A stretch of 64,000 bases of DNA from a phage, in the sequence record PZ445523.1; one strand, given 5' to 3'. Made by a program: the position numbers and the translations under genes. Under the pieces are notes generated by a model. It was given only the letters and a program-made list of their open reading frames with translations, had not been told where the DNA came from and did not search any database. Every line of letters starts with the position of its first letter. The first letter of the stretch is position 1. Below, piece after piece: positions 21,519 to 39,299 of the stretch.

Positions 21519-21546
21519 TTTGTGTTCCTCCGTAGTTGATAGTTGT

Positions 21547-21576
21547 ATAGTACCACAGAGGAACGGTCTTGTAAAC
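21547..21576 (-). promoter_or_regulatory. Early promoter
   Basis: GTTTAC, 18 nt, TACTAT. Confidence 0.6.
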
Positions 21577-21578
21577 AA

Positions 21579-21893: not shown

Positions 21894-21963
21894 TTACCAG
21901 TTTAATTCTAGTCATCTTTTTGATGGCAGTCCATATAATCTATTTCTGAACTGCCTTTTTGTC

Positions 21964-22683: not shown

Positions 22684-23648
22684 TTTAATAATACCGTTTC
22701 AGCAATTTCTTCCCAATGGTTTTTGTCGGTCATAATAAAGTCAGCAAGATAAAGTGCAGTACGCAGTGAAACATTGCGTAAACGATTAACATTGACTTTC
22801 ATCCATGATAATGCTTTATAAGTTTCTTCATCAGAAAGACCGCGCTTTTGCATCATGTCAGTTGAAAGAATAACATCTTCAACCCTGACCATAATTTCTT
22901 CATTAGTGTGAACACCCAAATCTAAATAAACTGAGCGGGACACTAATGCTTGTAAATGTGGAGCAAGTTTAGTACCACGGTCTAATTCGCGGTCAATATC
23001 AACGTTTGTGATAAAAACAATCGTTCCTTTAAATTCAAACTCACGCTCAATGCCTTTTTCTTCTAAGTAAGAAGATGCAGTGCTCCAGCAGACTTTACGG
23101 GTCTCTCCAGTGTCCAGAGCAGCTTTCAGAAGATTAAGAATGTCCATATCAGAGAAAACATCCACATCATCAATCAAAAGGACAGAATTCTCTTCACGAT
23201 TATTCCAAAGCTGTTCATAAAGACCGATACCAGAGATTTTACCATTAATGCTTTTATACTCAATGTATCCAATATCATTTGCTTTATTCAAAGCTTTATC
23301 TAAAGAATACGTTTTACCAATACCTGCCGCACCAGAGATAATTAATGAACGAATGTTTCCGTTAATAATACCATTCGTCATCATTCCCATAACATTAAAT
23401 CTTTTATTAATGCGGGTTTTCATATCTTCATATGATTCTTTAACTTCTTCAACTTTTACACCATCATATGAAATGTCTGATTTGTAAACCCAAACACCGC
23501 GACGTTTACCATCAATTTCAACAAAAACTTTACCGTCTCCTTGTGCATCTACCGGAGCATTATCTGGGAACCATTCGCCTAAGAGCTCAAAAGTTCCAGA
23601 AATTTCTTTACCGAAGTAGATACCCTTATTGATAGTTACAGTTTTCAT
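22680..23648 (-). CDS. AAA+ ATPase
   Basis: Likely start MKTVTINKG; Walker A ISGAAGIGKTYS, Walker B VLLIDDVD, sensor-like TNV. Confidence 0.7.
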   Translation of the reverse strand: MKTVTINKGIYFGKEISGTFELLGEWFPDNAPVDAQGDGKVFVEIDGKRRGVWVYKSDISYDGVKVEEVKESYEDMKTRINKRFNVMGMMTNGIINGNIRSLIISGAAGIGKTYSLDKALNKANDIGYIEYKSINGKISGIGLYEQLWNNREENSVLLIDDVDVFSDMDILNLLKAALDTGETRKVCWSTASSYLEEKGIEREFEFKGTIVFITNVDIDRELDRGTKLAPHLQALVSRSVYLDLGVHTNEEIMVRVEDVILSTDMMQKRGLSDEETYKALSWMKVNVNRLRNVSLRTALYLADFIMTDKNHWEEIAETVLLK

Positions 23649-23682
23649 TTTATTCTCCAAATCCGTATCAGTTGATAGTTGT

Positions 23683-23712
23683 ATAGTACCATAAAGCTTT
23701 ATGCTTGTAAAC
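23683..23712 (-). promoter_or_regulatory. Early promoter
   Basis: GTTTAC, 18 nt, TACTAT; upstream of the AAA+ ATPase gene. Confidence 0.6.
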
Positions 23713-23742
23713 AACTTTGTGAAAAATTTTTGAAATAAAAAA

Positions 23743-23762
23743 GGGGAGCCCGAAGGCTCCCC
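23743..23762 (-). terminator. Intrinsic terminator after the nucleotidyltransferase gene
   Basis: GGGGAGCC-UUCG-GGCTCCCC followed by a T-run on the minus strand. Confidence 0.7.
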
Positions 23763-23763
23763 A

Positions 23764-24777
23764 TCATTTATAATAACTTCGGTGGTTTTCAAGATAGACC
23801 TTCTCAAGGAAGTCATCCCAGAAACTCATGTCTACTTTTTGCTGCATACCGTTCTTAGAAGCTTCAGTAGATGCTGCTTCTACTTGATCGACCACATCTT
23901 CCAAAAACTCTTGAACCGTTTTAAATGGATGTTTACCCAACTTCACGTCGAGAATAAATGGAGCATCTTGGAGTGGATAAATCAAGTCGCCAGTTTTGTA
24001 AATTTCCAATAGTTGAAGTCCACCACGACAAGCATGGCTCAGAGCTTTCCAGTCAATACCTTCATTGGCTTCAGCCTTACGAGCACGTTCACCGTATTCA
24101 GCATCTAATTTGTTCAGTGACTGCTTAAGCTCAATAAGAGAAAGCGTTGTCTGATATTTACGACCCAACACAGTGTAGAACGTTTGTGGGCCTGTTTTCT
24201 CATGATTATGGAACACCCATTCACAGAATTCGTTTTCTGGAAGACGATGCTTAATATCTTCAACTTTAGTGCGACGCTGCTTAATAGAACCATCTTCTTG
24301 GTAATCAACCCATTGCTCAGGGATTTGATTAACTACTTTCAATACATCACGTAATGCAGCCAAACGAGAACCCTTGACACCGTATTTAGAAGCTTGCTTG
24401 CGGACATATCCTAAATATGATTTCATGTTAGTCGTATAAAAACGAGAACGGTTGTCTTGAATAAACTTCCACACATCAGGCAAATCAGATTTAACCACTA
24501 GTTCAGGTGGAGTGTGAAGCATATCTAATGCTACAGTTTCACCATCTGCTGCTAATTTAAAGAAATATTTAAGACTGTATAGTTCATGGTCAATATCATC
24601 TTTAGTGTTTTTAGATGATGTGTTGTTAGTGTTTTTACTCATATGCTCTTTAACATTTCCGATAAGAATATCGCGAGCAGGAGGAACAAAGATTTCTTTA
24701 AAATCTACATCAGATTCTGGGGTAGAAGTTCCATAAAGATGACTACCAAAATAGCTTTTCATTACTGTTTTCATCAT
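23764..24777 (-). CDS. Nucleotidyltransferase (Pol-beta / minimal NTase fold)
   Basis: N-terminal FGSHLYGTSTPESDVDF matches the GS-x(9-13)-DxD nucleotidyltransferase signature; 337 aa. Confidence 0.6.
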   Translation of the reverse strand: MMKTVMKSYFGSHLYGTSTPESDVDFKEIFVPPARDILIGNVKEHMSKNTNNTSSKNTKDDIDHELYSLKYFFKLAADGETVALDMLHTPPELVVKSDLPDVWKFIQDNRSRFYTTNMKSYLGYVRKQASKYGVKGSRLAALRDVLKVVNQIPEQWVDYQEDGSIKQRRTKVEDIKHRLPENEFCEWVFHNHEKTGPQTFYTVLGRKYQTTLSLIELKQSLNKLDAEYGERARKAEANEGIDWKALSHACRGGLQLLEIYKTGDLIYPLQDAPFILDVKLGKHPFKTVQEFLEDVVDQVEAASTEASKNGMQQKVDMSFWDDFLEKVYLENHRSYYK

Positions 24778-25235
24778 TCAGCCTTATATTCAATAACAGG
24801 ACATACTTTAGCTTTACGAGCTTTTAAAAATTCAACGATAATCGATTTCTTGGGTTGAATAGGAGGTAAACCTTTATACGCCCTATCAATATTTTCTATG
24901 TGTAAAGCATAATCCTTTTTCCATTTATAATCTTTATATTTTTCACGCAAATGTGCAGGAATAACAAATGAACCGATAATAAGTAAAACAACCAAAAGCG
25001 CAAGTATAAATGCTGATGGAAGCAAAGTCCATAAACTACCAAAAATAAGCCAACGTTGTAGGCTTTCTGCACAAATAATTGTTAGCCCTACGAGTATAGC
25101 ACACCCAAAAATAGAAACGAAAAATGTAGGAATAGCAATAGACCAAAAATATGCGCATAGTGTCTTAGGTCGTTGCCATTCATCGTTAAACAATTTGAAT
25201 AATTTATAGTGCCAAGAGTTTTCATTAATAATCAT
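24774..25235 (-). CDS. Integral membrane protein
   Basis: 153 aa with about three predicted transmembrane helices. Confidence 0.5.
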   Translation of the reverse strand: MIINENSWHYKLFKLFNDEWQRPKTLCAYFWSIAIPTFFVSIFGCAILVGLTIICAESLQRWLIFGSLWTLLPSAFILALLVVLLIIGSFVIPAHLREKYKDYKWKKDYALHIENIDRAYKGLPPIQPKKSIIVEFLKARKAKVCPVIEYKAE

Positions 25236-25237
25236 AA

Positions 25238-25759
25238 TTATCCTTTCATTGAAGGCGTAACGGTTGTTAAATACTTAATCATAGCTTCAGCTTCTGATTT
25301 TGATAATGAAATTTCTCCATTGTTTTGACGAATAGAAATAAAATCCGGATGACGGTCACCACCAGCTTTTAAAACACACATATAAGTATCAACTTCGCCT
25401 TCAATATTTGAAATGATTGAAGCAGTTCCACATGAATGTGGTTTTTGATAAATCAATACAGCTTTTCTTCCGCCATTTGACTGTTCATATGCTTTTAACA
25501 CATCAAGCAAATCAGTTCTTTTATCAATAGCTAAAATGTTATTTTCATCTTCAATGTTAAATCCTTCGGATACTTCATAAAGCGTTACCCATAAATCACC
25601 AATGTCAATAACAGCATTTACGTTTCCACGGCTTTCAAGAGCATGACAAATTTTCTTGATTTCGTCATAACTCATTTTAATAATATCATCTCCTTGAATA
25701 AGAAAGATGTCATTTTTAAATTCAACACGAATTAAACCACTTCCACTTGAAATAAACAT
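25238..25759 (-). CDS. Tandem-paralog protein 1
   Basis: 173 aa; C-terminus SKSEAEAMIKYLTTVTPSM resembles the neighbour. Confidence 0.5.
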   Translation of the reverse strand: MFISSGSGLIRVEFKNDIFLIQGDDIIKMSYDEIKKICHALESRGNVNAVIDIGDLWVTLYEVSEGFNIEDENNILAIDKRTDLLDVLKAYEQSNGGRKAVLIYQKPHSCGTASIISNIEGEVDTYMCVLKAGGDRHPDFISIRQNNGEISLSKSEAEAMIKYLTTVTPSMKG

Positions 25760-25765
25760 ATTTCC

Positions 25766-26320
25766 TCACTTTGAAATCATAGTTGGAATGACAGAATCAA
25801 GATAAGTCTTTAGCGCAATAGCTTCGTCTTTGGTAAATGTGACAATATGTGCTCGAGAATCATCAATTTGGCGAACAAGTACGACATCGCCATCTTCATA
25901 AGAAGTCTTGACATCCAAAGTCGTAGTATAATTTGCAGCTACTGGATTAATAATGCTAGCACCGCGATCTTTAGCCCATTGAAGTTTAGACTTTTCGGGT
26001 GTTTCGACTGTTTCAGATTCCAAGAATTCTTTCACCTTGGCAACGAATGTTGCCCAATTGTTGATAGAAAGACACGCAAGTTCAGTTTCAATATTACCAC
26101 CGTGAGTGCCACGATAAAAACGAACTTGGAGGTCGTCTGTAATATTAGTTACACAGGTAACTCCTGAGGGAGCATAAGATAAAATCGCAGGCAATTCCAT
26201 AGGAAGAATAGTAATACTATCGTCTTCCTGCGTCAGAACGTATATATTACCACGTTTTTCGATAACCAGGTCACCGAACAAATCAGTTGTTTCAATTACA
26301 GCTTTCATATTATTTACCAA
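25766..26320 (-). CDS. Tandem-paralog protein 2
   Basis: 184 aa; C-terminus TKDEAIALKTYLDSVIPTM. Confidence 0.5.
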   Translation of the reverse strand: MVNNMKAVIETTDLFGDLVIEKRGNIYVLTQEDDSITILPMELPAILSYAPSGVTCVTNITDDLQVRFYRGTHGGNIETELACLSINNWATFVAKVKEFLESETVETPEKSKLQWAKDRGASIINPVAANYTTTLDVKTSYEDGDVVLVRQIDDSRAHIVTFTKDEAIALKTYLDSVIPTMISK

Positions 26321-26495
26321 TTAAAGTTTCAATATAAGAATCAAGATTTACTTTAGCTTCTTCCATAAGAGTTTTGTATTTAATCTTGTTGGCATGTCCG
26401 GAGAAAGCTGATTCATCAATAATTGTTGATGTATGAACAGCTTTACTATACGTCTCAATTAATTCTCTTAATTTAAAAGCCTGCTCACTTGTCAT
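26310..26495 (-). CDS. Small helical protein, family member
   Basis: 61 aa; MTSEQAFKLRELI...LDSYIETLIGK. Confidence 0.45.
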   Translation of the reverse strand: MTSEQAFKLRELIETYSKAVHTSTIIDESAFSGHANKIKYKTLMEEAKVNLDSYIETLIGK

Positions 26496-26627
26496 TACAT
26501 ACTCCTCTGAATCATATCAATAATGTTGTTCACCAGATTATAAGTAAACATTGGGTAATTATATTGAATCATCACATACACAACAAACAAAACTTTCATT
26601 CTCTTCTCCTTGGCAGTTGACAAGATT

Positions 26628-26657
26628 ACTATACCATAACCTTGCCAACTTGTAAAC
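26628..26657 (-). promoter_or_regulatory. Early promoter
   Basis: GTTTAC, 18 nt, TATAGT. Confidence 0.5.
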
Positions 26658-26823
26658 CATTAAATGACGTTTTCGATAAAATTCTGAAGCTTTGTATGAG
26701 CATCAACCATGATTTTCATTTCTTCTTTGGCGAAAGCTATACCTCTTTCACGAGAAGAATATTCATAGTCAGAAACTGCATTAGCATATTCTTCAATTAG
26801 CTTTCATTAAAAACATCTGCTTT

Positions 26824-27018
26824 TCAGTTTTCATTATTCCACCTAATCATTTCAAGATATTGAACTAACTTAGCTTTGGATTTATCCAAATCCTTTTTAG
26901 CTGCTTCTATACCGTCGTATGAATATCCTTCACAATGCTCAACTGCTAATTGATATGAATCTATTTCAATATCATGCGCTAATTTAATGATTTTTTCAAA
27001 CTGTTCGTGTGTTAGCAT
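26824..27018 (-). CDS. Small helical protein, family member
   Basis: 64 aa; MLTHEQFEKIIKL...LVQYLEMI. Confidence 0.45.
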   Translation of the reverse strand: MLTHEQFEKIIKLAHDIEIDSYQLAVEHCEGYSYDGIEAAKKDLDKSKAKLVQYLEMIRWNNEN

Positions 27019-27020
27019 AC

Positions 27021-27239
27021 TTACACTCTCGTATTATGATCGATAATTTCATCAAGAAACATATCTAACGCTTCTAAAGCATTATCAACTTTAGCTTCAA
27101 ATTCTTCAATACCTGATAAGGCAAAGTTAACGCGTTCCTCATCTGCTTTACGAATTAAAGCTACCAATTCCTTAATTTTATCCGCTTGTTCAATACTAAT
27201 CATTATTCCACCACATATGAAAGAGAGAATATTGCACAC
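27021..27239 (-). CDS. Small helical protein, family member
   Basis: [13 protein letters not shown]...LDMFLDEII. Confidence 0.4.
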
Positions 27240-27391
27240 GCCATGTGAGTTGCAGCTTCATCACACATATTATAACGTTTCTTAAGAAGTTCTACAAGTT
27301 CTTCACTAGTGACTTCATCCATGTCGACGAAAAAATCACCATTAATGATGACGTAGATATTTCCTTCTTGATTGAGTGCTTCAATTTTCAT
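27203..27391 (-). CDS. Hypothetical small protein
   Basis: Likely start MKIEALNQ just downstream of an early promoter. Confidence 0.4.
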
Positions 27392-27419
27392 GATGTTCTC
27401 CTCTTTATCCGATGGTTGT

Positions 27420-27449
27420 ATAGTACCACAGCTCAAACGGAAAGTAAAC
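27420..27449 (-). promoter_or_regulatory. Early promoter
   Basis: GTTTAC, 18 nt, TACTAT. Confidence 0.6.
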
Positions 27450-27464
27450 CGGTAAAATGAAAAA

Positions 27465-27482
27465 AGTCTCCCGAAGGAGACT
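27465..27482 (-). terminator. Intrinsic terminator
   Basis: AGTCTCC-UUCG-GGAGACT followed by TTTTTT. Confidence 0.65.
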
Positions 27483-27486
27483 AATG

Positions 27487-27873
27487 TTATTCGAGGGAAA
27501 GAAGATACTTACTCTGGTAAAACATTCCAGTAATATCATCTATCGTGCTTTGGATGGCTGGAGGCATTTCTTTATAAATGCTGTTAGATTGGTCTAGTAT
27601 GCGATCAATCATTTTAATTGTGTCGGTAGGAAGTTTACTGGCATCTGGAATTGAAGGTGTGTATTTTCGACCAGAATACCCCAAATATTGCTCACCAAAT
27701 TTATCAATCAAATCTGGCAACTCGGAGAAAATAAAATCGTATGCTTTGTGTCTAGCATAACTTTTAGTTTCAAAATGTGCAGAATGAAAATAAGCTTGTG
27801 CAGCCATTAATAAACCTAAGTATTCATCTGCCTTTGAAGGTTTTCCACTTTGTGAAAAGTCGCTGAATTTCAT
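27487..27873 (-). CDS. Hypothetical protein (rI.-1-like position)
   Basis: 128-aa ORF immediately upstream of rI on the minus strand. Confidence 0.45.
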
Positions 27874-28163
27874 TCAGTCTCCAATTTAATGTTCATAATT
27901 CTAGCGTATGATTGTGCCATCTCCGCGCCTCGTTCTATACATTCAAAATCAGAAGAGCACGGGTCATTTTTATAGGTCGTTCTCATAAAACTATAGAATT
28001 GTTCAGACGATTCTACGCTTTTATTTTCAAAAAGCATATAAACGTGCCTAATACCAGATTCCATAAATTTATCAAAATGAGGATCGGCATTCGCTTCAAT
28101 CGATGGAGATAAAACAAATGACAATCCTAGCATGGCAAATAGTGCCGTTGCTTTTAAGGCCAT
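27870..28163 (-). CDS. rI: Lysis inhibition regulator rI
   Basis: 97 aa; N-terminal signal/anchor MALKATALFAMLGLSFVLSPSIEA; matches T4 rI as I recall it. Confidence 0.85.
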   Translation of the reverse strand: MALKATALFAMLGLSFVLSPSIEANADPHFDKFMESGIRHVYMLFENKSVESSEQFYSFMRTTYKNDPCSSDFECIERGAEMAQSYARIMNIKLETE

Positions 28164-28175
28164 AAAGGCCTCCTA

Positions 28176-28388
28176 TCATTTTTGTCCTGTATTTACTTTA
28201 TGCCGATGCACGGCCTTAACTTTATCAAGGTATTTTTCAAAATTTCGCAATCTAGTATAGTCTGCCGGAGATTGGTTGAGTGATACTTCTCGACGCAAAG
28301 CTGAAATGATATTTCCAACTTCCCTACGAATTTCATCTAATTGAAGCACAGTAAGATTGCGAAGTTGCTTTTCAGTTAATTGTAGCAT
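28176..28388 (-). CDS. Hypothetical small protein
   Basis: 70-aa ORF between rI and tk. Confidence 0.4.
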
Positions 28389-28430
28389 ATATACCCCTTT
28401 AGTTAGATAAACCTATTTATAACTTTTGCA

Positions 28431-29012
28431 CTAACCGAGCTTTTTAGTTAATTCATTCCAATGTTTTCTACACAAAGAAACATAAATTTCATCACCAATA
28501 CAGATTTGATTACCTTCTTTAACTGATGTTCCATCTTCCATTAATCGAGCTGTCATAATCGCTTTTTTACCACAATGACAAACTGCCTTTAGTTCAATAA
28601 GTTTATCTGCAATCGCTAAAAGTTCTTTAGAACCTTCAAACAATTTTCCAGCGAAATCAGTCCTTAATCCATAAGCCATAACAGGAACATTATATGTATC
28701 AACAATTCGGCTCAATTGATGCACCTGTTCAGTTTTTAAAAATTGGGCTTCATCTACAAATATGCAATGAATATCTTTTTGTGCTTCAGCCCATTTATAG
28801 AACTCGAAAATATCCATATCATCCGTAATAATATTCGCTTCCTGCTTAATTCCAATGCGAGAAACGACTTCACAGACAGAATCGCGAGTATCAATAGCAG
28901 GCTTAAGAACTAATACGCCCATTCCGCGTTCTTTATAATTGTGTGCAGCAGTCAAAAGAGAAGCAGATTTTCCAGCATTCATTGCTGCATAAGTAAAAAT
29001 TAAACTCGCCAT
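28431..29012 (-). CDS. tk: Thymidine kinase
   Basis: 193 aa; P-loop NAGKSASL, zinc cysteines CHCGKKA. Confidence 0.9.
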   Translation of the reverse strand: MASLIFTYAAMNAGKSASLLTAAHNYKERGMGVLVLKPAIDTRDSVCEVVSRIGIKQEANIITDDMDIFEFYKWAEAQKDIHCIFVDEAQFLKTEQVHQLSRIVDTYNVPVMAYGLRTDFAGKLFEGSKELLAIADKLIELKAVCHCGKKAIMTARLMEDGTSVKEGNQICIGDEIYVSLCRKHWNELTKKLG

Positions 29013-29013
29013 T

Positions 29014-29202
29014 TTAGTCCTTAGTTAAATTTTCTAAATATGTTTCTAAATCATTTTCAGCTTTATCGATAGATTTTACTAATTCGTAATATGTTTCGGC
29101 ATCTCCATATTCAGAAGATATTTCAAAAGACAAATCCTTTTCTAAACTAATAATTTCACCAACTAAAAATAATATTTCGTTCTTTTGTTCGCGAGTAATC
29201 AT
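29014..29202 (-). CDS. Small helical protein, family member
   Basis: 62 aa; MITREQKNEILFLV...LETYLENL. Confidence 0.45.
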   Translation of the reverse strand: MITREQKNEILFLVGEIISLEKDLSFEISSEYGDAETYYELVKSIDKAENDLETYLENLTKD

Positions 29203-29384
29203 AAAGAATTTATATAATCAATGAGTTCTTGCTCTTTATCGTCGAAATCTTTACACAGTTCTTCGTATTCGTCAGTATTAAAAGGACCGCATTCATTACA
29301 AACTTTTTCCAATTCACTATTTTTATCCATAACTTCGTGGATAAGAGAAAAGAGTTTGTCTTTTTGTTCTTTGCTTAGGCTCAT
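29199..29384 (-). CDS. Small helical protein, family member
   Basis: 61 aa; MSLSKEQKDKLFSLI...LIDYINSL. Confidence 0.45.
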   Translation of the reverse strand: MSLSKEQKDKLFSLIHEVMDKNSELEKVCNECGPFNTDEYEELCKDFDDKEQELIDYINSL

Positions 29385-29550
29385 ATATTAATTTCCAGAA
29401 GTTTTAAAATAATTCGCTTTTGCTTAAATATTTCCACAGTTAAATGATCAGTATCTTTTTGACCAATTCCAATGGCAAAACCTTTATTAACAGCGAGTTC
29501 AATTAAATTATCAAGTTCACGTAACACTTCGTATTGTAACTCAGAACTAT

Positions 29551-29763
29551 TCATTTTGGTTTACCTTCTTTAACGAAATCAGGATAAGGATAAAATCCTG
29601 AATAAAATCCTTCACCTTTATGATTGATGCATCCTTTATTAGAACAATAGCACCAATAATCGAAATCACAAGCCATTTCATCATTGCATAAAGCAAAAAC
29701 AACCGGCCACTTACACTTTTCACAGTGGGCATTTTTAAGAATACTAGTTTGGCTCATAACCAT
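29551..29763 (-). CDS. Small cysteine-rich protein
   Basis: 70 aa; HCEKCKW...C...C.C..GC, possible zinc-binding. Confidence 0.35.
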   Translation of the reverse strand: MVMSQTSILKNAHCEKCKWPVVFALCNDEMACDFDYWCYCSNKGCINHKGEGFYSGFYPYPDFVKEGKPK

Positions 29764-29981
29764 GTCACCTTTAAGCAGTATTCTTCTACATGTTGTTTAC
29801 GACCTTTCTTATCAATAAAGGTATATTCAACGAATGTTCCAATGTAGTCTTTATCTACATCATGTGGACTATTAATTGGACATTTAGTACGGCAAATGCG
29901 TTCCCATTGACGAATAATTACTGCCTTATTCTTTGGGTCATACGGATGTGGATAATGTATATTCATAATAACGGTTCCCAA
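29754..29981 (-). CDS. Hypothetical small protein
   Basis: 75-aa ORF. Confidence 0.35.
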   Translation of the reverse strand: MGTVIMNIHYPHPYDPKNKAVIIRQWERICRTKCPINSPHDVDKDYIGTFVEYTFIDKKGRKQHVEEYCLKVTWL

Positions 29982-30430
29982 TCAACAATCACAATTTCTA
30001 ATTTAGAGGAATATGTATCTAAAATCCCCTCAATAATATCCCAGTTCCCTTTACCTATGCCTGCACCAATCCTAGGCATATAGATTGTAGGTTTAATCAG
30101 TTTATTTTCACCAAACTCATTTAATTCTAACATACAATTCATTAAAGCGGAATACTCAAAATTTGGCCCTGGTTGAAATTGAGTATAAAGATTGAAGCAG
30201 TAAGCTTTATGAGTCCTAAAGTATTTTTCATAGACTGAGTAAGAACCGAGTTTAGTTACATCGCCCCATTCTGTCTGTAATTTATCAGCTTCCAAAATTT
30301 TAGGGAAAGCTTTGGTTAATTGACCCGCTACGCCTGAACCCATAGTATGAAAACAATTGCATCCATGCGCAATATTTTTACCTTCAGCGAAAAGGGCGAC
30401 AATATCGCCCTTGATATATTTTACAATCAT
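29963..30430 (-). CDS. Macro-domain protein (ADP-ribose binding or hydrolase fold)
   Basis: 155 aa; GDIVALF...AHGCNCFHTMGSGVAGQL...PRIGAGIGKG resembles macro-domain glycine-rich loops. Confidence 0.55.
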   Translation of the reverse strand: MIVKYIKGDIVALFAEGKNIAHGCNCFHTMGSGVAGQLTKAFPKILEADKLQTEWGDVTKLGSYSVYEKYFRTHKAYCFNLYTQFQPGPNFEYSALMNCMLELNEFGENKLIKPTIYMPRIGAGIGKGNWDIIEGILDTYSSKLEIVIVDWEPLL

Positions 30431-30774
30431 CTAGTACTCAATCCTCGATTATAAGAATCTACCAAACGGTCAACCATTGAATGACAAGCGGCTTTATCTT
30501 TCTCCTCCGCAACTGAGCATTCTAAGGTATTCCACTTTTTAGCATATCGTTTTAATAATGTATCGTTTTTGTATCTGCTTGATTTATCTCTTTCTCCGTC
30601 TTTATATGCATATATTAATTTCTGTGCAAATTCAGCTTGGCATGCTTTATTTTTCCCACAATAATCTGCCGCAGTGCGGTTTACATATTCTCTAATTTCA
30701 GTATATGATGTATCTGCTGACGCAGAAGCAGAAAATGAAATTAATCCTATACATAAAACCAAAATTTTAGTCAT
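30427..30774 (-). CDS. Secreted cysteine-containing protein
   Basis: 115 aa; signal peptide MTKILVLCIGLISFSASASA; four cysteines. Confidence 0.5.
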   Translation of the reverse strand: MTKILVLCIGLISFSASASADTSYTEIREYVNRTAADYCGKNKACQAEFAQKLIYAYKDGERDKSSRYKNDTLLKRYAKKWNTLECSVAEEKDKAACHSMVDRLVDSYNRGLSTR

Positions 30775-31312
30775 TTACTATTTCCAAAAGTTTATTATTT
30801 TTAAGGTAATTAGCCTTTTCTAGGACTTCAGAAGCATATTTAGAACCAGCTTTAACATTCCATCCCGAATTATAAGAGGATATTGCTTTTCTTATATCGC
30901 CCTTATGTATATTTAACCAATAAGAAAGTTCAATGTACGCCCAGGAAGCTGAATTGGATCGTTTATTCAACATTCTTTTTATTTCAGCATCGGTCATATT
31001 ATAACCAAGTTCCTTAACTCTTGCTCGCATAGTAGGCAAATAATTTTGGAACATTCCATAGGCGTGATGCTTTGGTTTAGATTTTAAATTAACTCCGCCA
31101 GAGCTTTCTTGCCATAAAATAGCAGCCATTATATGACCTAATCCGCTCTTGTGGATATTTTTGTGTGTTTTATATTTTCCATCCTTAGAAAATTGTTCCC
31201 CGAATTGATACGCGTAACGCATGTTATCGAGTTGGACATTACTGAAAGTATGCTCGGAGCTATGTGCCATCATTGAAATGGCCAATAGACCAGCGAGTAG
31301 TGCTTTTCTCAT
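30767..31312 (-). CDS. Secreted lytic transglycosylase (SLT family 1-like)
   Basis: 181 aa; signal peptide; motifs WQESSGG, YGMFQ, SYNSG in catalytic-domain order. Confidence 0.6.
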   Translation of the reverse strand: MRKALLAGLLAISMMAHSSEHTFSNVQLDNMRYAYQFGEQFSKDGKYKTHKNIHKSGLGHIMAAILWQESSGGVNLKSKPKHHAYGMFQNYLPTMRARVKELGYNMTDAEIKRMLNKRSNSASWAYIELSYWLNIHKGDIRKAISSYNSGWNVKAGSKYASEVLEKANYLKNNKLLEIVND

Positions 31313-31319
31313 GCTTACC

Positions 31320-31781
31320 TCATTGAGTTTTAATTACTGCTTTAGAAGCCTTTCCTGGTAAACGACGACTGTTGATAATTGCCATCCTACATTGAAGTGA
31401 CGGGTCTTTGAACTTCTCGTTAGGTTTACAAACTGTAAATCCAAGCCAAAGATTTCCATCTGTGATTTCTAAACGTCCAGGACGATATTCAACCCCATCA
31501 ATAAAATCCTCATCAATGTCAGGACGCGGAGGCATACTCAGGAATTCATTAACTTCTAAAACATGGTCTTTTATTTTATGGAATAATTCAAAAACGTATG
31601 TCTCATCAATCTCCCGTTGAATTGCACGATCAAGAAGATGCTGAGAATATTTTAGATGAAACGATGAGACCCCTGCTGCTTTTGATGCCTCACGAATCTC
31701 ATTGTTAATTTGACGAAACTCCGACTCAAAGTGACGACGAAGCTTATTTCGACGGATAAAAACTTCAGTGTTGATAGTCAT
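31320..31781 (-). CDS. regB: Sequence-specific endoribonuclease RegB
   Basis: 153 aa, own early promoter, conserved position relative to tk/denV/e; assignment by length and synteny. Confidence 0.55.
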   Translation of the reverse strand: MTINTEVFIRRNKLRRHFESEFRQINNEIREASKAAGVSSFHLKYSQHLLDRAIQREIDETYVFELFHKIKDHVLEVNEFLSMPPRPDIDEDFIDGVEYRPGRLEITDGNLWLGFTVCKPNEKFKDPSLQCRMAIINSRRLPGKASKAVIKTQ

Positions 31782-31808
31782 GTTATTCTCCTCTTAACTG
31801 ATAGGAAA

Positions 31809-31838
31809 ATTATACCACAGCCAAGAGGAAAAGTAAAC
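31809..31838 (-). promoter_or_regulatory. Early promoter upstream of regB
   Basis: GTTTAC, 18 nt, TATAAT. Confidence 0.65.
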
Positions 31839-31840
31839 AG

Positions 31841-32161
31841 TTATTCTTTAAATCTAATCAATTTATTCATAGACTTTGAAACTTCTGCACGAACCTCATG
31901 TAAGTTTTTGAGCTGTTCAAGACGCTGCTCATAGTAAGCAATTTCATCTTCTTCGAGACAGTCCTGTGAATCTTCTTTAAGATAACGTGCATAGTCCTGG
32001 AAAGCTTTACGAACTACTTCCTGGAAGTCATCAAGACTTTGAATTTTCTTAGGAGCAACAGATACACGACGAGGGGCAGTATAATACTCATAACCAAACC
32101 CTGCGCTTAATTGAGCCATTAGTATTTTTCCTCGGGTTGGAAAATGGAACGACACGCCCAC
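31841..32161 (-). CDS. Hypothetical protein
   Basis: 106-aa ORF. Confidence 0.4.
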
Positions 32162-32433
32162 ATGCTTGCTTCTTTCAGACGGTCAATCGCGTTACGAATC
32201 TGGGTGATGCGTTCATGAGCCTGGTCCAGTTCTTGTTCAGAAACTTCTTTGGTATCCAAGTTCATATAATAGGTAACATGTTCATCTTCCAGAGCTTTAA
32301 ACATTAACCCAAGACGAACTTCAGCATCTTTAATAGCATTCACTTTACCAATTTTGTCATCGGTATGCGGTTTATAACCTTTAATATCTTCAATCATATT
32401 TGACTTCCTCGCCAGTACCCAAATCATATTCAA
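32119..32433 (-). CDS. Hypothetical protein
   Basis: 104-aa ORF. Confidence 0.4.
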
Positions 32434-32611
32434 CTAAACGAATAGGTTCATGAATGCCATATCCTTGAACAGAAATTTCTGTCGTAGGATAAATTCCATC
32501 AATATCCCCCATATTCCATGCTTCATTAAATTGTTGCTCACCTGAATTACTAAACCATTCAGCGAAAGCATTTAGTACATCTTCAGAACCTTCAATAATT
32601 ATCTTTGCCAT
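32390..32611 (-). CDS. Hypothetical protein
   Basis: 73-aa ORF. Confidence 0.35.
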   Translation of the reverse strand: MAKIIIEGSEDVLNAFAEWFSNSGEQQFNEAWNMGDIDGIYPTTEISVQGYGIHEPIRLVEYDLGTGEEVKYD

Positions 32612-32973
32612 TATAAGCTCTCGGTAAAGGTACGAGCGATAACGTCGCGCTGCTGTTCCGGAGTCAGAGAGTTAAAGCGAACTGCATAACCGGATACACG
32701 GATGGTCAGCTGCGGATATTTTTCCGGATGCTTAACTGCATCTTCCAGGGTTTCACGACGCAGAACGTTAACGTTCAGGTGTTGACCACCTTCAATTTTA
32801 ACTGTAGACTGTGGCTCAATTTCAATTTCACGGGCATGTAAACCGTAGAAAATTTCTGGGTCTACAAAAGAGTCCTCTTTAAAGGTTTTAGAGACAATAA
32901 TTCGCGCTTGAATACCATCTTCAAAATAAATAGTACCTTTATGCGTGCCTTCAAGAATTTGATATGCTTTCAT
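32611..32973 (-). CDS. GrcA/YfiD-like autonomous glycyl radical cofactor
   Basis: C-terminal ~60 aa [56 protein letters not shown] carries the RVSGY glycyl-radical motif and matches E. coli GrcA as I recall it; locally GC-richer DNA. Confidence 0.8.
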
Positions 32974-32979
32974 ATAACC

Positions 32980-33312
32980 TCAATTAGAAAATAAATTTAT
33001 CCAAGATTGTTCTTTAATTAAAAATGGCTCAGAATCATATGCCATTAAACTTTGCGTAATTAATCCTTTAAAAGGTCCATCAATAAATTCCATGGTAAAA
33101 TATGGAATTTTATTCATTAGCTGCGCGTTAGGAGCAGTGCACAAAACTCTGCATCCTTTGAATACACCCTTTTGTAATTTGTATTGCTTGGGATAAAATT
33201 CGCTCAAAATGTTGTTATTTGCCAAAATTTCAAAATGATTCACCAATTTATTTTTAATAGTTTTTGGTGAAAAATAAAGATATTCGAAAAGTTGCGCATC
33301 TGTCATCATTGC
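32980..33312 (-). CDS. Hypothetical protein
   Basis: Likely start MMTDAQLFEY. Confidence 0.4.
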   Translation of the reverse strand, partial: AMMTDAQLFEYLYFSPKTIKNKLVNHFEILANNNILSEFYPKQYKLQKGVFKGCRVLCTAPNAQLMNKIPYFTMEFIDGPFKGLITQSLMAYDSEPFLIKEQSWINLFSN

Positions 33313-33845
33313 ATTCCGATTACGAAAAACTGTGGACGAGTAATACCACCAATACAACATTTACTATTGCAACAGTACTGTACAGTGTCAATATGAGCAT
33401 CATAAATCTTATCCATATCAGGAGATTTGACAGGCTCATCAATTATATATAAAATTCGCGAAAGCGATAAACCTCTGAACTTGCTTCCTTTATTACCAAT
33501 AAAACTGCGCACAGAATCAGTAAATAAACGAAAACGTATATCATTATTAGAATAACGCGAAAATTCCTTTTTGATGTTATTTGCAGAAATTTTAGCGTAA
33601 GCTGAAGTATTAGAAAGAACAATAACTGTTCCGCCATCATACAGCCAATTAGCAGCAAAGTTAGTCACAGCAATTGATTTACCGGATTGACGTCCACCAT
33701 CTATACGAAGTGTGCAGTACTGTTTAAGTAATTCTTCAAATGGCGGGATATATTCGTTTTTACAAATTTCTTCTACTCTAGCATCAGAATGGTGTGTAAA
33801 AGCATTCATCAGGGATAGATAAGGACCAGTTAAAAATGTTCTCAT
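33306..33845 (-). CDS. Small P-loop NTPase
   Basis: Likely start MRTFLTGPY; Walker A GGRQSGKS, Walker B-like ILYIIDE. Confidence 0.5.
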   Translation of the reverse strand: MRTFLTGPYLSLMNAFTHHSDARVEEICKNEYIPPFEELLKQYCTLRIDGGRQSGKSIAVTNFAANWLYDGGTVIVLSNTSAYAKISANNIKKEFSRYSNNDIRFRLFTDSVRSFIGNKGSKFRGLSLSRILYIIDEPVKSPDMDKIYDAHIDTVQYCCNSKCCIGGITRPQFFVIGMQ

Positions 33846-33998
33846 TTTATTCTCTCTAAATTTGGGCCATTCCATGGCGCATGAATTGTCCATTTCTGTA
33901 TTTACCCATTACCGCACTCAGGCTCGACCTTATTACAGGTTGGCGGGAATCCCTCATAGAATCATGAGGTCCAGGTTGTTCCCATATTTCTTATTTGC

Positions 33999-34472
33999 TT
34001 ATTTGAATGATTTAACGTACTGAATAGAACCTTTACTATTCACAAAGGCAATTTTACCATTTTTGTTATACATGGTAGCAGTACGCTGATAGCCATAAGT
34101 TTGTTTACCAGATTGATAACCAACTAATGCAAAATTATCTTCGCCCATTTTATTCTGCTTAGCGCGGATACGTTCATGACCGTGCGCCATAAGAACCTTA
34201 GCGTCGCCAGTTGCAATGGATCTACGAGTTTTTTCATCTTCAACTGTATTAACAAAGTCGTCAAATGAATCAAATTTAGCATGAGATTTATTATACAGTT
34301 TTCCATCTACTGCATAATTATATCCCTGTACATCCATCTCAACTTCTGTACCATCATCCAATACAGCAGTGATTTTTTGACCTTTTTTAAATTTCAAAAG
34401 ATCAGTAAAAGATTCAGCAATAATTTGAGAATTAATAGCTGCTTCAGTAATAAATTCTTGATATGTTTTCAT
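33999..34472 (-). CDS. Internal-protein-like head protein with capsid targeting sequence
   Basis: N-terminus MKTYQEFITEAA matches the T4 internal-protein capsid targeting sequence consensus; lysine-rich. Confidence 0.65.
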   Translation of the reverse strand: MKTYQEFITEAAINSQIIAESFTDLLKFKKGQKITAVLDDGTEVEMDVQGYNYAVDGKLYNKSHAKFDSFDDFVNTVEDEKTRRSIATGDAKVLMAHGHERIRAKQNKMGEDNFALVGYQSGKQTYGYQRTATMYNKNGKIAFVNSKGSIQYVKSFK

Positions 34473-34481
34473 ATGTTTCCT

Positions 34482-34898
34482 TTAAATGTAAATATTTTTA
34501 CCGTAATACTTGTACCAATGTGGTTTCATTAAAATTTTTTCATCAAGTCGTTGTTGACTCAATTTAATAGCTGATTTGCATGGATTATAATCATTTTTCC
34601 ATTCTACTGGAATATCGCTGATGTCAGGAACTTCAGTATCTTTTATACTGAACCCGCGTTTTAAGCATTCCGTTATAATGTCTGATTGACGCTTTCGCAA
34701 AAATTCTAACTTATCGTAAAAGAAAGTAACATGACCAGAACCTAAAATAAACTCGGAAGATATTTTAAAATCTTTAACCCGCTTACCATTTGCCACATGT
34801 TTACGAACTATACCAAAAACACGCGGCAATTCACGGTATTCTGCGATTAAATGTTGATCAGCAAGTTCAGATACTAAAGTCAAATTAATACGAGTCAT
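34482..34898 (-). CDS. denV: Endonuclease V (pyrimidine dimer DNA glycosylase)
   Basis: 138 aa; [17 protein letters not shown]...WYKYYGK, near-identical to T4 endo V as I recall it. Confidence 0.9.
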
Positions 34899-34923
34899 TT
34901 TATCCCTCCAAGTAACTGTGAAT

Positions 34924-34953
34924 ATACTATCACAATTCTAGGAGAAAGTAAAC
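34924..34953 (-). promoter_or_regulatory. Early promoter upstream of denV
   Basis: GTTTAC, 18 nt, TAGTAT. Confidence 0.6.
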
Positions 34954-34957
34954 AACT

Positions 34958-35488
<531 letters not shown>

Positions 35489-35944
35489 TTAAAAGAGGTT
35501 GTTCATTATTCGGTAAAGCGAAGGACCCATCACATATTGCCACTGAGTACGAGGAATAAGAGCAAAAGCGTCCATCTCTGGAATCATAACGCCATCTTTA
35601 TTTTCAAAATAAGACTCGCAGCGGCAATTTCTAAACATCTCATGCTCTACTGGAATCATATAATAAAATAACTGTAGGTCTTTATTACTAGAATATTTAA
35701 ATACACCTAGGTCTTCTAGAAGGTCTGGATTATAATTGCTAAAACCGGTCTCTTCTAAGCATTCTCTTTTTGCAGCTTCCAGTGCATTCAAATCAGAACT
35801 TTCTACACGCCCCTTTGGAATATCCCAGCGATGTGCCATCATTCCAGGCTTACGAGAACCAGTAACCCGACCCATAAATAAATCTTTATCTTCTGTCATA
35901 AAGATAATACCAGCTGATAATGTTTTCATTTTAATTTCCTGCAT
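35489..35944 (-). CDS. nudE: Nudix hydrolase
   Basis: 151 aa; Nudix box GRVESSDLNALEAAKRECLEETGF. Confidence 0.8.
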   Translation of the reverse strand: MQEIKMKTLSAGIIFMTEDKDLFMGRVTGSRKPGMMAHRWDIPKGRVESSDLNALEAAKRECLEETGFSNYNPDLLEDLGVFKYSSNKDLQLFYYMIPVEHEMFRNCRCESYFENKDGVMIPEMDAFALIPRTQWQYVMGPSLYRIMNNLF

Positions 35945-36414
35945 TCAGCGATAAAGCTATTTAAATTTTGGGTATATTTCTTTTCATCAAAAATCTTTTG
36001 TTGTCTGCGTAAACGCCATGGCATTTCAATGAACACGCACCATATTCCAGATAATATTGCTGCTGTCAAAATATTAACAAGCATAATTAAAAGAATCCAA
36101 TCTCCTGTTCTGCCTATTGGACTTTCTCCAAAGAAGCAAAATACGAATGATGACACAGGAAGACTAATGATATACCACAGAATCATAATCTTATTTGTAA
36201 ACCAATCAGCATTTGTTAACTTAGCGCGACCGTTTTGAATACATACGAACTTATCATCTGTTATAGTAGATGGCTTAGCTGCTTGATATCCCATTCTAAA
36301 CTCCCTAATCAACAAATTTTTCATATCTTCGGAACAACCATTCCAGTCAACTCTATCAACTGAAATGCCATCATCCCCATCATCTAAATCATACCAGCGA
36401 GTTTTTAAAATCAT
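35926..36414 (-). CDS. Membrane protein
   Basis: 162 aa with two or three hydrophobic helices. Confidence 0.45.
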   Translation of the reverse strand: MILKTRWYDLDDGDDGISVDRVDWNGCSEDMKNLLIREFRMGYQAAKPSTITDDKFVCIQNGRAKLTNADWFTNKIMILWYIISLPVSSFVFCFFGESPIGRTGDWILLIMLVNILTAAILSGIWCVFIEMPWRLRRQQKIFDEKKYTQNLNSFIAECRKLK

Positions 36415-36773
36415 TTAATTTTCCTACAATCACTCACAAACTCTTCCATTGATTCTTTTTCAATATAAGACATGTAGCTATTATATTCCTTTAATTGTAT
36501 TTTGTAATCCTTTTTTCTTTGCCAATTTATTTTAAAATTATCATAATGAAAATATAACATGGTACCAAAGAATGAAAATAATGAAATAATTTTAGTATAG
36601 CGAAGTTCACTCCAAAATTCTATTATATTTACTGTGCCGTCAATGTTTAAAATAAGACAGTCAATTAACAATCCAAAAAGACTACCCGCAAGAGCTGCAA
36701 ATGCTGATACGGCAAGAATTAATAGTGCCTCTGGAAACGAATATTTAACTTTATTTAGTTTTGGCTTTTGCAT
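36411..36773 (-). CDS. Membrane protein
   Basis: 120 aa, hydrophobic. Confidence 0.45.
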   Translation of the reverse strand: MQKPKLNKVKYSFPEALLILAVSAFAALAGSLFGLLIDCLILNIDGTVNIIEFWSELRYTKIISLFSFFGTMLYFHYDNFKINWQRKKDYKIQLKEYNSYMSYIEKESMEEFVSDCRKIK

Positions 36774-37135
36774 CGTGATTCCTTAACAAATTTCATAATT
36801 TCATCAAATTCATACGCAGCAAGTTTAAGCTGATGTTCCTTTTTAATCTTTTTACACTGAGCTTTCCATTCGCGTACGCGTTTACGATAATGTCTTCCTT
36901 GATACCAGTATCCTACCCAATTTACAGGTACTAATAAAAATGGAACTATCATTGGAAGAAATAGTGTTGACACAAATATTACACCAAATTTATTGGCAGT
37001 CATAACGTCTATAACCATTCCAACTACAAATGATACAACTACCACAGGACCCATTAATACATCAGTAGAAATTATCTGACGCTTTAATTCATACTTCAAC
37101 GGTTTACTTGGAAGGTATAGTGATGGTTTTGACAT
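36755..37135 (-). CDS. Membrane protein
   Basis: Likely start MSKPSLYL; hydrophobic helices. Confidence 0.45.
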   Translation of the reverse strand: MSKPSLYLPSKPLKYELKRQIISTDVLMGPVVVVSFVVGMVIDVMTANKFGVIFVSTLFLPMIVPFLLVPVNWVGYWYQGRHYRKRVREWKAQCKKIKKEHQLKLAAYEFDEIMKFVKESRCKSQN

Positions 37136-37712
37136 ATTCTCTACATTCCTTAACAAATTTTTCTAGTAATAAATCGCTTTCAAAATTGGGATTTTCTACG
37201 AATTTATCAAAAAGATCATCAACAATAGTTAAGATATTCTTTTTACTAAGAATACGTTTATTTTCATGCTTCGTTTCAGAATCAACTATAAGAGTAAAGA
37301 AATATTTCTTTCCCTGAAATTTTACAGTAGTATCAATATAGAATAAATTTGACTTTTGTAAATTACGTTTAAACCATGCATCACTTAAACTATAAACGCC
37401 AAGATAATCATAATCGTCGTTTAAATAACAGACCGTCCATTCAGGAGAAACAAAATCAGTAAATTCAACGTCAAAATCGCATGTTAATAAATGAATTGAT
37501 TCAATACTGTTAATAAGTATTCCAGGACGTATTAAAGACTTTTTACCTCTAGAAAATCTTCCAGAAAGACTTTCATCAGTTTCATATGAAGAACCCCAAT
37601 AATAATTACGTCCTTCTGCCATACGTTTAAGAGCATTTAATAATTGGTCTGGAACATCAACCTGTCTTTGAAACTCTTCAAACATTGAATTGAAATCACT
37701 TTGCATTTTCAT
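37104..37712 (-). CDS. Hypothetical protein
   Basis: 202-aa ORF. Confidence 0.45.
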   Translation of the reverse strand: MKMQSDFNSMFEEFQRQVDVPDQLLNALKRMAEGRNYYWGSSYETDESLSGRFSRGKKSLIRPGILINSIESIHLLTCDFDVEFTDFVSPEWTVCYLNDDYDYLGVYSLSDAWFKRNLQKSNLFYIDTTVKFQGKKYFFTLIVDSETKHENKRILSKKNILTIVDDLFDKFVENPNFESDLLLEKFVKECREYVKTITIPSK

Positions 37713-37730
37713 TCCTATTTACTCCAAGTA

Positions 37731-37751
37731 ATAGGGGCCGAAGCCCCTTAT
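37731..37751 (-). terminator. UUCG-tetraloop hairpin
   Basis: AAGGGGC-UUCG-GCCCCTAT. Confidence 0.55.
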
Positions 37752-37753
37752 CA

Positions 37754-38347: not shown

Positions 38348-38403
38348 AGTATTTCCTTAGGTTGGTATAATTAGATAATATCACGTTTTAATAGATTGTA
38401 AAC

Positions 38404-38739: not shown

Positions 38740-38794
38740 AATGTTCTCCTCAAATTATGGGCTCATAATATCTCAATCATGAGCCTATGTAAAC

Positions 38795-39058: not shown

Positions 39059-39101
39059 TTCATTCTCCAAGTTGTTTTCTGTATCAGTAGTTGATAGTTG
39101 T

Positions 39102-39292: not shown

Positions 39293-39299
39293 AAGAATG

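What the first reader, a model, noticed from the sequence alone, without database searches (positions are those of the whole stretch)
29963..30430. Early-region macro-domain protein
The 155-aa ORF carries macro-domain-like glycine-rich loops (NIAHGCNCFHTMGSGVAGQL and MPRIGAGIGKG). Macro domains bind or hydrolyse ADP-ribose adducts. A phage copy could reverse ADP-ribosylation by host systems such as DarT-type DNA ADP-ribosylation, degrade ADP-ribose-derived signals, or regulate the phage's own ADP-ribosyltransferases.
Basis: partly seen in the sequence, partly recalled or inferred. Interest (0 to 1): 0.6.

Follow-up and report, generated by a model that had tools for sequence, protein, structure and literature searches.

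The report
T4 Tk.4 (AdfM) anti-DarT2 macrodomain
This gene encodes the already known T4 protein Tk.4 (AdfM), a small macrodomain enzyme that a 2025 preprint showed protects the phage from the bacterial DarTG2 defence, most likely by removing ADP-ribose from phage DNA.

Summary

A 2025 preprint (HIDEN-SEQ) found tk.4 to be the only T4 gene required on a DarTG2-expressing host. It confirmed this with a clean knockout and renamed the gene adfM.

What I add is that Tk.4 is not a DarG-type macrodomain.
- The catalytic lysine of DarG and TARG1 is replaced by a glutamine, Q84, invariant in 107 of 107 homologues. SCO6735 has a glutamine at the same position; it hydrolyses thymidine-linked ADP-ribose on DNA, and its Q85A mutant is inactive.
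- Tk.4 lacks DarG's DarT-binding C-terminal domain.
- It is only distantly related to PhiKZ gp104, the other phage protein named 'AdfM', which is DarG-like.

Hydrolysis by Tk.4 itself has not been shown.

The parts
29963..30430 (-). tk.4 / adfM coding sequence: a 155-aa stand-alone macrodomain protein, 100% identical to T4 Tk.4 (ORF 60.5)
30317..30376 (-). Residues 19-38, NIAHGCNCFHTMGSGVAGQL: the first glycine-rich loop. It contains the macrodomain Asn (N25, codon 30356-30358) and G31/G33.
   Evidence: N25 is kept in 106/107 homologues and G33 in 107/107. N25 aligns with SCO6735 Asn27 and the DarG Asn. SCO6735 N27S almost abolishes activity (PMC9411070), and PhiKZ AdfM N23A reduces activity (PMC13309987).
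30179..30181 (-). Codon for Gln84 in the invariant motif N-L-Y-T-Q. It occupies the position of the catalytic Lys of DarG (K80) and TARG1 (K84) and of Gln85 in SCO6735.
   Evidence: Three independent alignments agree: hhalign vs DarG, hmmsearch vs BT1257 and TARG1, and MAFFT. Q84 is kept in 107/107 homologues. SCO6735 Q85A is inactive (PMC9411070). The codon was read directly from the sequence.
30047..30079 (-). Residues 118-128, MPRIGAGIGKG: the second glycine-rich (diphosphate-binding) loop
   Evidence: P119, I121, G122 and G124 are invariant in 107 homologues. G122 and G124 align with SCO6735 G126 and G128. SCO6735 G128E is reported to reduce activity (PMC9411070).
30427..30430 (-). ATGA overlap between the vs stop codon and the tk.4 start codon (likely translational coupling)
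   Evidence: Sequence and ORF coordinates
29963..29966 (-). ATGA overlap between the tk.4 stop codon and the tk.3 ATG start (70-aa DUF7202 protein)
   Evidence: Sequence and ORF coordinates; the 70-aa reading matches PF23832 end to end and T4 ORF 60.1

Best explanation
The ORF is the T4-type tk.4 gene, recently renamed adfM (anti-DarT factor, macrodomain). It encodes a stand-alone 155-aa macrodomain of the ALC1-like class, expressed from the early/middle - strand block regB-vs.1-vs-tk.4-tk.3. When the phage infects a cell carrying the DarTG2 toxin-antitoxin defence, the freed DarT2 toxin ADP-ribosylates thymidines in single-stranded DNA and blocks replication. Tk.4 most likely binds the ADP-ribose and hydrolyses the thymine-ribose bond, restoring replicable DNA. 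The likely chemistry is lysine-independent, as in SCO6735: Gln84, held by Asn25, positions the distal ribose, the two glycine-rich loops hold the diphosphate, and a water does the chemistry. What is shown: macro fold, identity to T4 Tk.4, conservation of the SCO6735-type residues, and (published, for the identical protein) the genetic requirement on DarTG2 hosts. What is inferred: hydrolysis of dT-ADPr by Tk.4 itself, and the role of Gln84.
For: The protein is 100% identical to T4 Tk.4, and the gene order matches T4/RB18.

Published genetics: tk.4 was the single HIDEN-SEQ hit on a DarTG2 host, and a clean knockout sensitised T4.

Profile comparisons: hhalign to SCO6735+BT1257 gives prob 99.1%, E 7e-19, 31% identity. 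To the DarG set it gives prob 98.9%, E 3e-17, 19% identity.

Active site: N25, Q84, G122 and G124 align with SCO6735 N27, Q85, G126 and G128 and are kept in 106-107 of 107 homologues.

Precedent: SCO6735 cleaves dT-ADPr on DNA faster than DarG or TARG1, does not cleave dG-ADPr, rescues E. coli from DarT, and loses activity with Q85A or N27S (PMC9411070). Another phage macrodomain, PhiKZ gp104, removes DarT2-made ADP-ribose from DNA in vitro (PMC13309987).
Against: No biochemical assay of Tk.4 was found in the searchable literature; the preprint itself says only that hydrolysis 'seems likely'. The genetic evidence is a preprint and uses one DarTG2 system expressed from a plasmid. Tk.4 lacks the catalytic Lys of DarG and TARG1. 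It also lacks the longer, lysine-bearing 'mobile loop' that the SCO6735 authors link to DNA binding, so neither established mechanism transfers completely. No model coordinates were available to check pocket geometry.
Confidence: 0.8

Rival explanations
1. Small-molecule ADP-ribose metabolism. Tk.4 would be an ADP-ribose-1''-phosphate phosphatase (Poa1p-like) or an O-acetyl-ADP-ribose deacetylase, as the database labels 'phosphatase' and 'O-acetyl-ADP-ribose deacetylase' say.
Against: These labels come from domain homology (smart A1pp; PMC1524935), not from assays. The Tk.4 position equivalent to the catalytic site reads Q, whereas Poa1p appears to have S there (reading of the alignment). The only phenotype known for the gene is sensitivity to DarTG2, a DNA-modifying system. 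As far as I know, the T4 RNA-repair pathway (Pnkp/Rnl1) does not generate Appr-1''-p.
Confidence: 0.05
2. Protein or RNA de-ADP-ribosylation is the main job. Tk.4 would reverse modifications made by T4's own Alt/ModA/ModB or by host ADP-ribosyltransferases such as the mRNA-targeting CmdT.
For: TARG1 and SCO6735 also remove Glu/Asp-linked ADP-ribose from proteins (PMC9411070), so a second substrate is plausible. T4 encodes three ADP-ribosyltransferases (PMC8120803).
Against: Alt, ModA and ModB modify arginine (Arg84 of MazF, Arg265 of RNAP alpha), a linkage that macrodomains are not known to cleave (established knowledge). According to the HIDEN-SEQ preprint, tk.4 is dispensable without DarTG2. 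CmdTAC gives robust defence against T-even phages even though they carry tk.4 (abstract of PMC11618068). No protein or RNA data exist for Tk.4.
Confidence: 0.08
3. Non-enzymatic antitoxin mimic. Tk.4 would neutralise DarT2 by binding it, as ICP1 AdfB and the C-terminal domain of DarG do, with the macro pocket being irrelevant.
For: ICP1 AdfB counteracts DarT by direct binding (PMC11481870). Tk.4 hydrolysis has never been measured.
Against: Tk.4 covers only positions 2-145 of the 329-338-position DarG models and lacks the DarT-binding C-terminal half. The residues kept invariant across 107 homologues are those of the ADP-ribose pocket (N25, Q84, G33, G122, G124), which is what selection for catalysis predicts.
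Confidence: 0.04
4. Degradation or sequestration of ADP-ribose-derived immune signals, for example Thoeris gcADPR.
Against: There is no genetic or biochemical evidence. The closest relatives are all hydrolases of macromolecular ADPr or of Appr-1''-p. As far as I know, the known anti-Thoeris proteins are unrelated sponges.
Confidence: 0.02

Closest known systems
T4 Tk.4 = AdfM (bioRxiv 10.1101/2025.11.20.689424, HIDEN-SEQ)
   Same: The protein sequence is identical over 155/155 residues. It has the same position between vs and tk.3 and the same macro fold.
   Different: There is no difference in the protein. The surrounding phage is a mosaic relative of T4: it has two extra small ORFs between tk.2 and tk.3 and is at most about 95.5% identical to any deposited genome over 24 kb.
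SCO6735 (Streptomyces coelicolor) and BT1257 (Bacteroides thetaiotaomicron): the Gln-type subclass of ALC1-like macrodomains
   Different: In most members, including this one, the Tk.4 family lacks the roughly 5-6-residue longer 'mobile loop' with its lysines. It has its own invariant motif, HGCNC...NLYTQ. Every contig I checked, and all the organism names sources give that I could place, are phage-borne rather than chromosomal.
DarG macrodomain (antitoxin of DarTG2; T. aquaticus, M. tuberculosis)
   Different: The catalytic Lys80 is replaced by Gln. There is no C-terminal DarT-binding domain and no adjacent darT. The NCBIfam DarG equivalog scores 30 bits against a cut-off of 250, and the PADLOC DarG model scores only 36 bits.
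PhiKZ gp104 'AdfM' (chimallivirus; PMC13309987)
   Same: A phage-encoded stand-alone macrodomain that counters DarTG2. It was given the same name independently.
   Different: PhiKZ gp104 is a true DarG-type protein: it has the FPTK lysine motif, E 9e-25 to Mtb DarG, and scores 133 bits on the PADLOC DarG model. Its only BLASTP similarity to Tk.4 is a 23-residue stretch, E 0.005. It is imported into the phage nucleus, which T4 does not have. Its DNA de-ADP-ribosylation has been shown in vitro; that of Tk.4 has not.
Human TARG1 (OARD1) and yeast Poa1p
   Different: The TARG1 catalytic dyad K84/D125 corresponds to Q84/G126 in Tk.4. Poa1p acts on a small molecule.
T4 AdfN (gene 30.3, NADAR) and AdfA (61.2)
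   Same: Anti-DarT factors of the same phage group. AdfN is likewise an 'orphan antitoxin-like' hydrolase (PMC11825919).
   Different: AdfN has a different fold (NADAR) and a different substrate (guanine-linked ADPr made by DarT1). It does not protect against DarTG2.

Membership tests
Macro domain superfamily (Pfam PF01661) | Sequence match above the curated threshold | tested here: met
   27.7 bits against a gathering score of 22, E 2.9e-6, covering profile positions 2-113 of 118
Macro domain superfamily (Pfam PF01661) | Three-layer alpha/beta/alpha macro fold | tested here: met
Macro domain superfamily (Pfam PF01661) | ADP-ribose binding | not testable with these tools
   Only inferred, from conservation of the two Gly-rich loops and Asn25
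ALC1-like class (TARG1 / DarG / SCO6735 / Poa1p) | Closest relatives by sequence and structure fall in this class rather than in the MacroD, PARG or viral nsp3 classes | tested here: met
SCO6735/BT1257 (Gln-type) subclass | Gln in place of the catalytic Lys, supported by the conserved Asn | tested here: met
   Q84 aligns with SCO6735 Q85 and with BT1257's Gln; N25 aligns with N27. Q84 is kept in 107/107 and N25 in 106/107 homologues.
SCO6735/BT1257 (Gln-type) subclass | 'Mobile loop' about five residues longer than in DarG/TARG1, said to be characteristic of the subclass (PMC9411070) | tested here: not met
   BT1257 and SCO6735 carry a 5-6-residue insertion relative to Tk.4 after the Gln. 74 of 107 family members have the short loop and 27 have one three residues longer.
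SCO6735/BT1257 (Gln-type) subclass | Hydrolysis of thymidine-linked ADP-ribose on ssDNA | not testable with these tools
   Supported only indirectly, by the T4 delta-tk.4 phenotype on DarTG2 hosts
DarG antitoxin (type II TA, DarTG2) | Catalytic lysine (K80 in T. aquaticus DarG) in the F-P-T-K motif | tested here: not met
   Tk.4 has N-L-Y-T-Q; the Gln aligns with the Lys in three alignments
DarG antitoxin (type II TA, DarTG2) | C-terminal DarT-binding domain (full length about 330-340 aa) | tested here: not met
   Tk.4 is 155 aa and matches only positions 2-145/146 of the 329- and 338-position DarG models
DarG antitoxin (type II TA, DarTG2) | Encoded next to its darT toxin gene | tested here: not met
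   The neighbours are vs and tk.3 (DUF7202), with no ART gene in the block
DarG antitoxin (type II TA, DarTG2) | NCBIfam equivalog score cut-off | tested here: not met
   NF048014 scores 30.3 bits against a cut-off of 250
Phage anti-DarT2 factor 'AdfM' as defined for T4 (functional class) | Sequence identity to the protein whose deletion sensitises T4 to DarTG2 | tested here: met
   100% over 155 aa to T4 ORF 60.5 / Tk.4; phenotype from the literature
Poa1p-type ADP-ribose-1''-phosphate phosphatase | Phosphatase activity on Appr-1''-p | not testable with these tools
   Only fold and sequence resemblance. The 'phosphatase' labels derive from the A1pp domain name.

The most novel reading that the evidence does not exclude
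T4-type AdfM (Tk.4) is not a captured DarG antitoxin. It is a separate branch of ALC1-like macrodomains, so far seen only on phage contigs, that reverses DarT2 DNA ADP-ribosylation by a lysine-independent, glutamine-assisted mechanism (invariant HGCNC...NLYTQ signature, short loop). Phages would then have recruited at least two different macrodomain lineages, Tk.4-type and PhiKZ/DarG-type, for the same counter-defence. A lysine-free site might also give a different substrate range, for example protein Glu/Asp-ADPr as with SCO6735.
Probability: 0.55. Interest if true: 0.3.

Novelty: already known. Interest (0 to 1): 0.15.

Why it matters
As a discovery it matters little. The gene has been annotated as a macro/A1pp protein since at least 2006, and its anti-DarTG2 role was reported in 2025. 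It remains a useful worked example: a sequence-only reader picked out the right domain and the right defence system. The residual value lies in mechanism and naming. The T4 protein lacks the catalytic lysine on which the DarG comparison rests and instead resembles the glutamine-type enzyme SCO6735. Two distantly related phage macrodomains now share the name AdfM. This gives clear point mutants to test (N25A, Q84A, G124E). It also suggests that about 5% of sequenced phages (2751 of 50,697 records with a match at E<=1e-5) carry a homologue that could reverse thymidine ADP-ribosylation.

Tried and rejected
- **DarG orthologue ('orphan antitoxin').** Rejected. There is no catalytic Lys and no C-terminal domain, and the score is far below the NCBIfam equivalog cut-off.
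- **Orthologue of PhiKZ AdfM.** Rejected. Only a 23-residue BLASTP match, E 0.005.
- **A dedicated promoter for tk.4.** The sigma-70 scan found no more sites than shuffled sequence (31 against 36.6 +/- 6.2). The TTGACC/TATAAT pair just upstream, marked as 'potential' in the 1986-era T4 record, has a spacer I count by eye at about 14 nt. I draw no conclusion from it.
- **Bacterial homologues next to darT.** The one 'Bacilli MAG' homologue I looked up sits on a T4-like phage contig. No bacterial chromosomal context was found, but only one contig was examined.
- **Direct biochemical data on Tk.4.** Searches for 'tk.4' with macrodomain, ADP-ribos or AdfM returned none.

Full report
**Observation.** The window carries an ATG-to-TGA ORF of 155 codons at 29963..30430 on the - strand. 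The start codon overlaps the stop of the upstream gene as ATGA. The stop codon overlaps the ATG of the downstream gene in the same way. The ORF is therefore embedded in a tightly packed - strand gene block.

**It is a macrodomain.**
- Pfam Macro (PF01661) matches at E 2.9e-6, 27.7 bits against a gathering score of 22, over almost the whole model.
- PHROG 335 matches at E 1.3e-65.
- An AlphaFold2 model built on 107 homologues has mean pLDDT 96.0 and pTM 0.91.

**Identity of the gene.** The region is from a T4-like phage (Tequatrovirus). Window 29000-31500 is 98.5% identical to phage TadeuszReichstein and 98.4% to RB18. In RB18 the gene order on this strand is regB, vs.1, vs, tk.4, tk.3, two small ORFs, tk.2, tk.1, tk, and the ORF corresponds to 'Tk.4; contains A1pp phosphatase motif'. 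The protein is 100% identical to T4 ORF 60.5, which is Tk.4, in the record 'T4 DNA for 58.3 to 65.5 kb early region'. The phage itself is a mosaic. No deposited genome covers more than 93% of window 20000-44000, and the best match is about 95.5% identical. It also has two small ORFs between tk.2 and tk.3 that T4 proper lacks. The A1pp/macro assignment for tk.4 orthologues was already published in 2006 (PMC1524935).

**What is already known about function.** The HIDEN-SEQ preprint (bioRxiv 10.1101/2025.11.20.689424) infected a DarTG2-expressing E. coli with a saturated T4 transposon library. [quoted passage not shown] A clean tk.4 knockout sensitised T4 to DarTG2. The authors renamed the gene adfM (anti-DarT factor Macrodomain). 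On the basis of structural similarity to M. tuberculosis DarG, they wrote that it 'seems likely' that it removes ADP-ribose from DNA. I found no biochemical assay of Tk.4. The finding is correct but not new.

**What I can add: the type of active site.** By sequence, Tk.4 is only weakly similar to DarG.
- phmmer to DarG gives E 5e-4 to 6e-3, compared with 1.3e-9 for BT1257.
- The NCBIfam DarG equivalog scores 30 bits against a cut-off of 250.
- The PADLOC DarG model scores 36 bits, over the macro half only.

Three independent alignments place Tk.4 Gln84 at the position of the catalytic lysine of DarG (K80, motif FPTK) and TARG1 (K84). These are hhalign of the family against a DarG set, hmmsearch of the family profile against the PDB, and MAFFT of representatives. 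The same position is Gln in BT1257 and in SCO6735 (Q85). TARG1's second catalytic residue, D125, corresponds to Gly in Tk.4.

In 107 homologues down to about 33% identity, Q84 is invariant (107/107). The same holds for Y82, G33, A35, P119, I121, G122 and G124, and N25 is kept in 106/107. Profile-profile comparison puts the family slightly closer to SCO6735+BT1257 (prob 99.1%, E 7e-19, 31% identity) than to DarG (prob 98.9%, E 3e-17, 19% identity).

**Why that matters for mechanism.** SCO6735 is a biochemically characterised member of the ALC1-like class (PMC9411070).
- It lacks the Lys and Asp of TARG1 and DarG.
- It hydrolyses thymidine-linked ADP-ribose on DNA faster than DarG or TARG1, and it does not touch guanine-linked ADP-ribose.
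- It rescues E. coli from DarT.
- Q85A inactivates it, N27S nearly does, and G128E was reported to reduce its activity.
- The authors propose that Gln85, locked by Asn27, positions the distal ribose while a backbone-held water initiates cleavage.

Tk.4 has the equivalents N25, Q84, G122 and G124. The most likely mechanism is therefore a lysine-independent, SCO6735-like hydrolysis of dT-ADPr. This step is inferred, not shown. One difference remains. Tk.4 and most of its family lack the 5-6-residue longer, lysine-bearing 'mobile loop' that the SCO6735 authors regard as characteristic of that subclass and link to DNA binding. I therefore file Tk.4 as working like SCO6735, but as its own branch of the class rather than a member of that subclass.

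**Relation to the other 'AdfM'.** A 2026 Cell Reports paper (PMC13309987) independently named PhiKZ gp104 AdfM and showed in vitro that it removes DarT2-made ADP-ribose from DNA. I translated the construct sequence given in that paper. It is a true DarG-type macrodomain: it has the FPTK motif, E 9e-25 to Mtb DarG, and 133 bits on the PADLOC DarG model. Its only BLASTP similarity to Tk.4 is a 23-residue stretch at E 0.005. Two distantly related macrodomain lineages therefore carry the same name and apparently the same role.

**Distribution.** tblastn finds a match at E<=1e-5 in 2751 of 50,697 phage records. These cover T4-like, rV5-like and Felix-O1-like phages and phages of Pseudomonas, Vibrio, Acinetobacter and even Bacillus. 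A homologue labelled as coming from a 'Bacilli MAG' lies on a T4-like phage contig between RNA-ligase-like and Dda-like genes. I found no bacterial chromosomal or darT-linked context, but I examined only one such contig.

**Rivals.**
- *Small-molecule roles* (Appr-1''-p phosphatase, O-acetyl-ADPr deacetylase). These rest on domain-name labels only.
- *Protein or RNA de-ADP-ribosylation.* This is possible as a side activity, because SCO6735 and TARG1 do it. But T4's own transferases modify arginine, which macrodomains are not known to reverse, and tk.4 is dispensable without DarTG2.
- *A non-enzymatic DarT binder like ICP1 AdfB*. This is unlikely, because the invariant residues are those of the ADP-ribose pocket and the DarT-binding domain of DarG is absent.
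- *Degradation of Thoeris-type signals.* This has no support.

**Verdict.** The feature is already known: it is T4 Tk.4/AdfM. The modest new point is that it is a glutamine-type rather than a DarG-type macrodomain, which suggests specific mutants and a likely independent recruitment of two macrodomain lineages by phages. Interest is low.

Noticed in passing
window 29381..29554 (-) and 29551..29763 (-): Two small ORFs (57 aa and 70 aa) lie between tk.2 and tk.3. T4 proper lacks them, but RB18 and RB32 have them. The 70-aa one is a Cys-rich 'Phage zinc binding domain' protein (PF23895, E 2.6e-29).
   Followed up: partly
window 29014..29202 (-) and 29199..29384 (-): tk.1 and tk.2 are paralogues of one family of unknown function (DUF7438, E 7e-15 and 3e-19). 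Other small ORFs nearby (26824..27018, 27021..27239) look similar at the N-terminus by eye.
   Followed up: partly
window 30427..30774 (-) vs; 30767..31312 (-) vs.1: Both proteins begin with signal-peptide-like hydrophobic N-termini (MTKILVLCIGLISFSASASA; MRKALLAGLLAISMMAHS). That fits vs.1 (SLT transglycosylase domain) but is odd for Vs, the 'valyl-tRNA synthetase modifier'. The HIDEN-SEQ preprint reports that vs is needed specifically in minimal medium.
   Followed up: no
window 30392..30412: A perfect 8-bp G+C-rich hairpin (AAGGGCGA-caata-TCGCCCTT) followed by a T-rich run on the + strand. It lies inside the 5' end of the tk.4 coding sequence (codons 7-13) and is probably chance.
   Followed up: no
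window 20000..44000: The phage is a mosaic. No deposited genome covers more than 93% of this stretch, and the best match is about 95.5% identical, although Tk.4 is 100% identical to the T4 protein.
   Followed up: partly
L003 1927..2397: A Tk.4 homologue (38% identity) labelled as a 'Bacilli bacterium' MAG protein sits on a T4-like phage contig next to RNA ligase 1-like, Dda-like helicase, Pnkp and dCMP deaminase genes. The neighbourhood differs from T4's, and the taxonomic label is probably wrong.
   Followed up: partly
window 31809..31837 (-): A promoter-like site (TTTACT, 17 nt, TATAAT, with an extended -10 TG) lies just upstream of regB. A terminator-like hairpin on the - strand at 27465..27482 follows rI.-1. 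Together they could bound the transcription unit that contains tk.4. These are consensus matches only.
   Followed up: no
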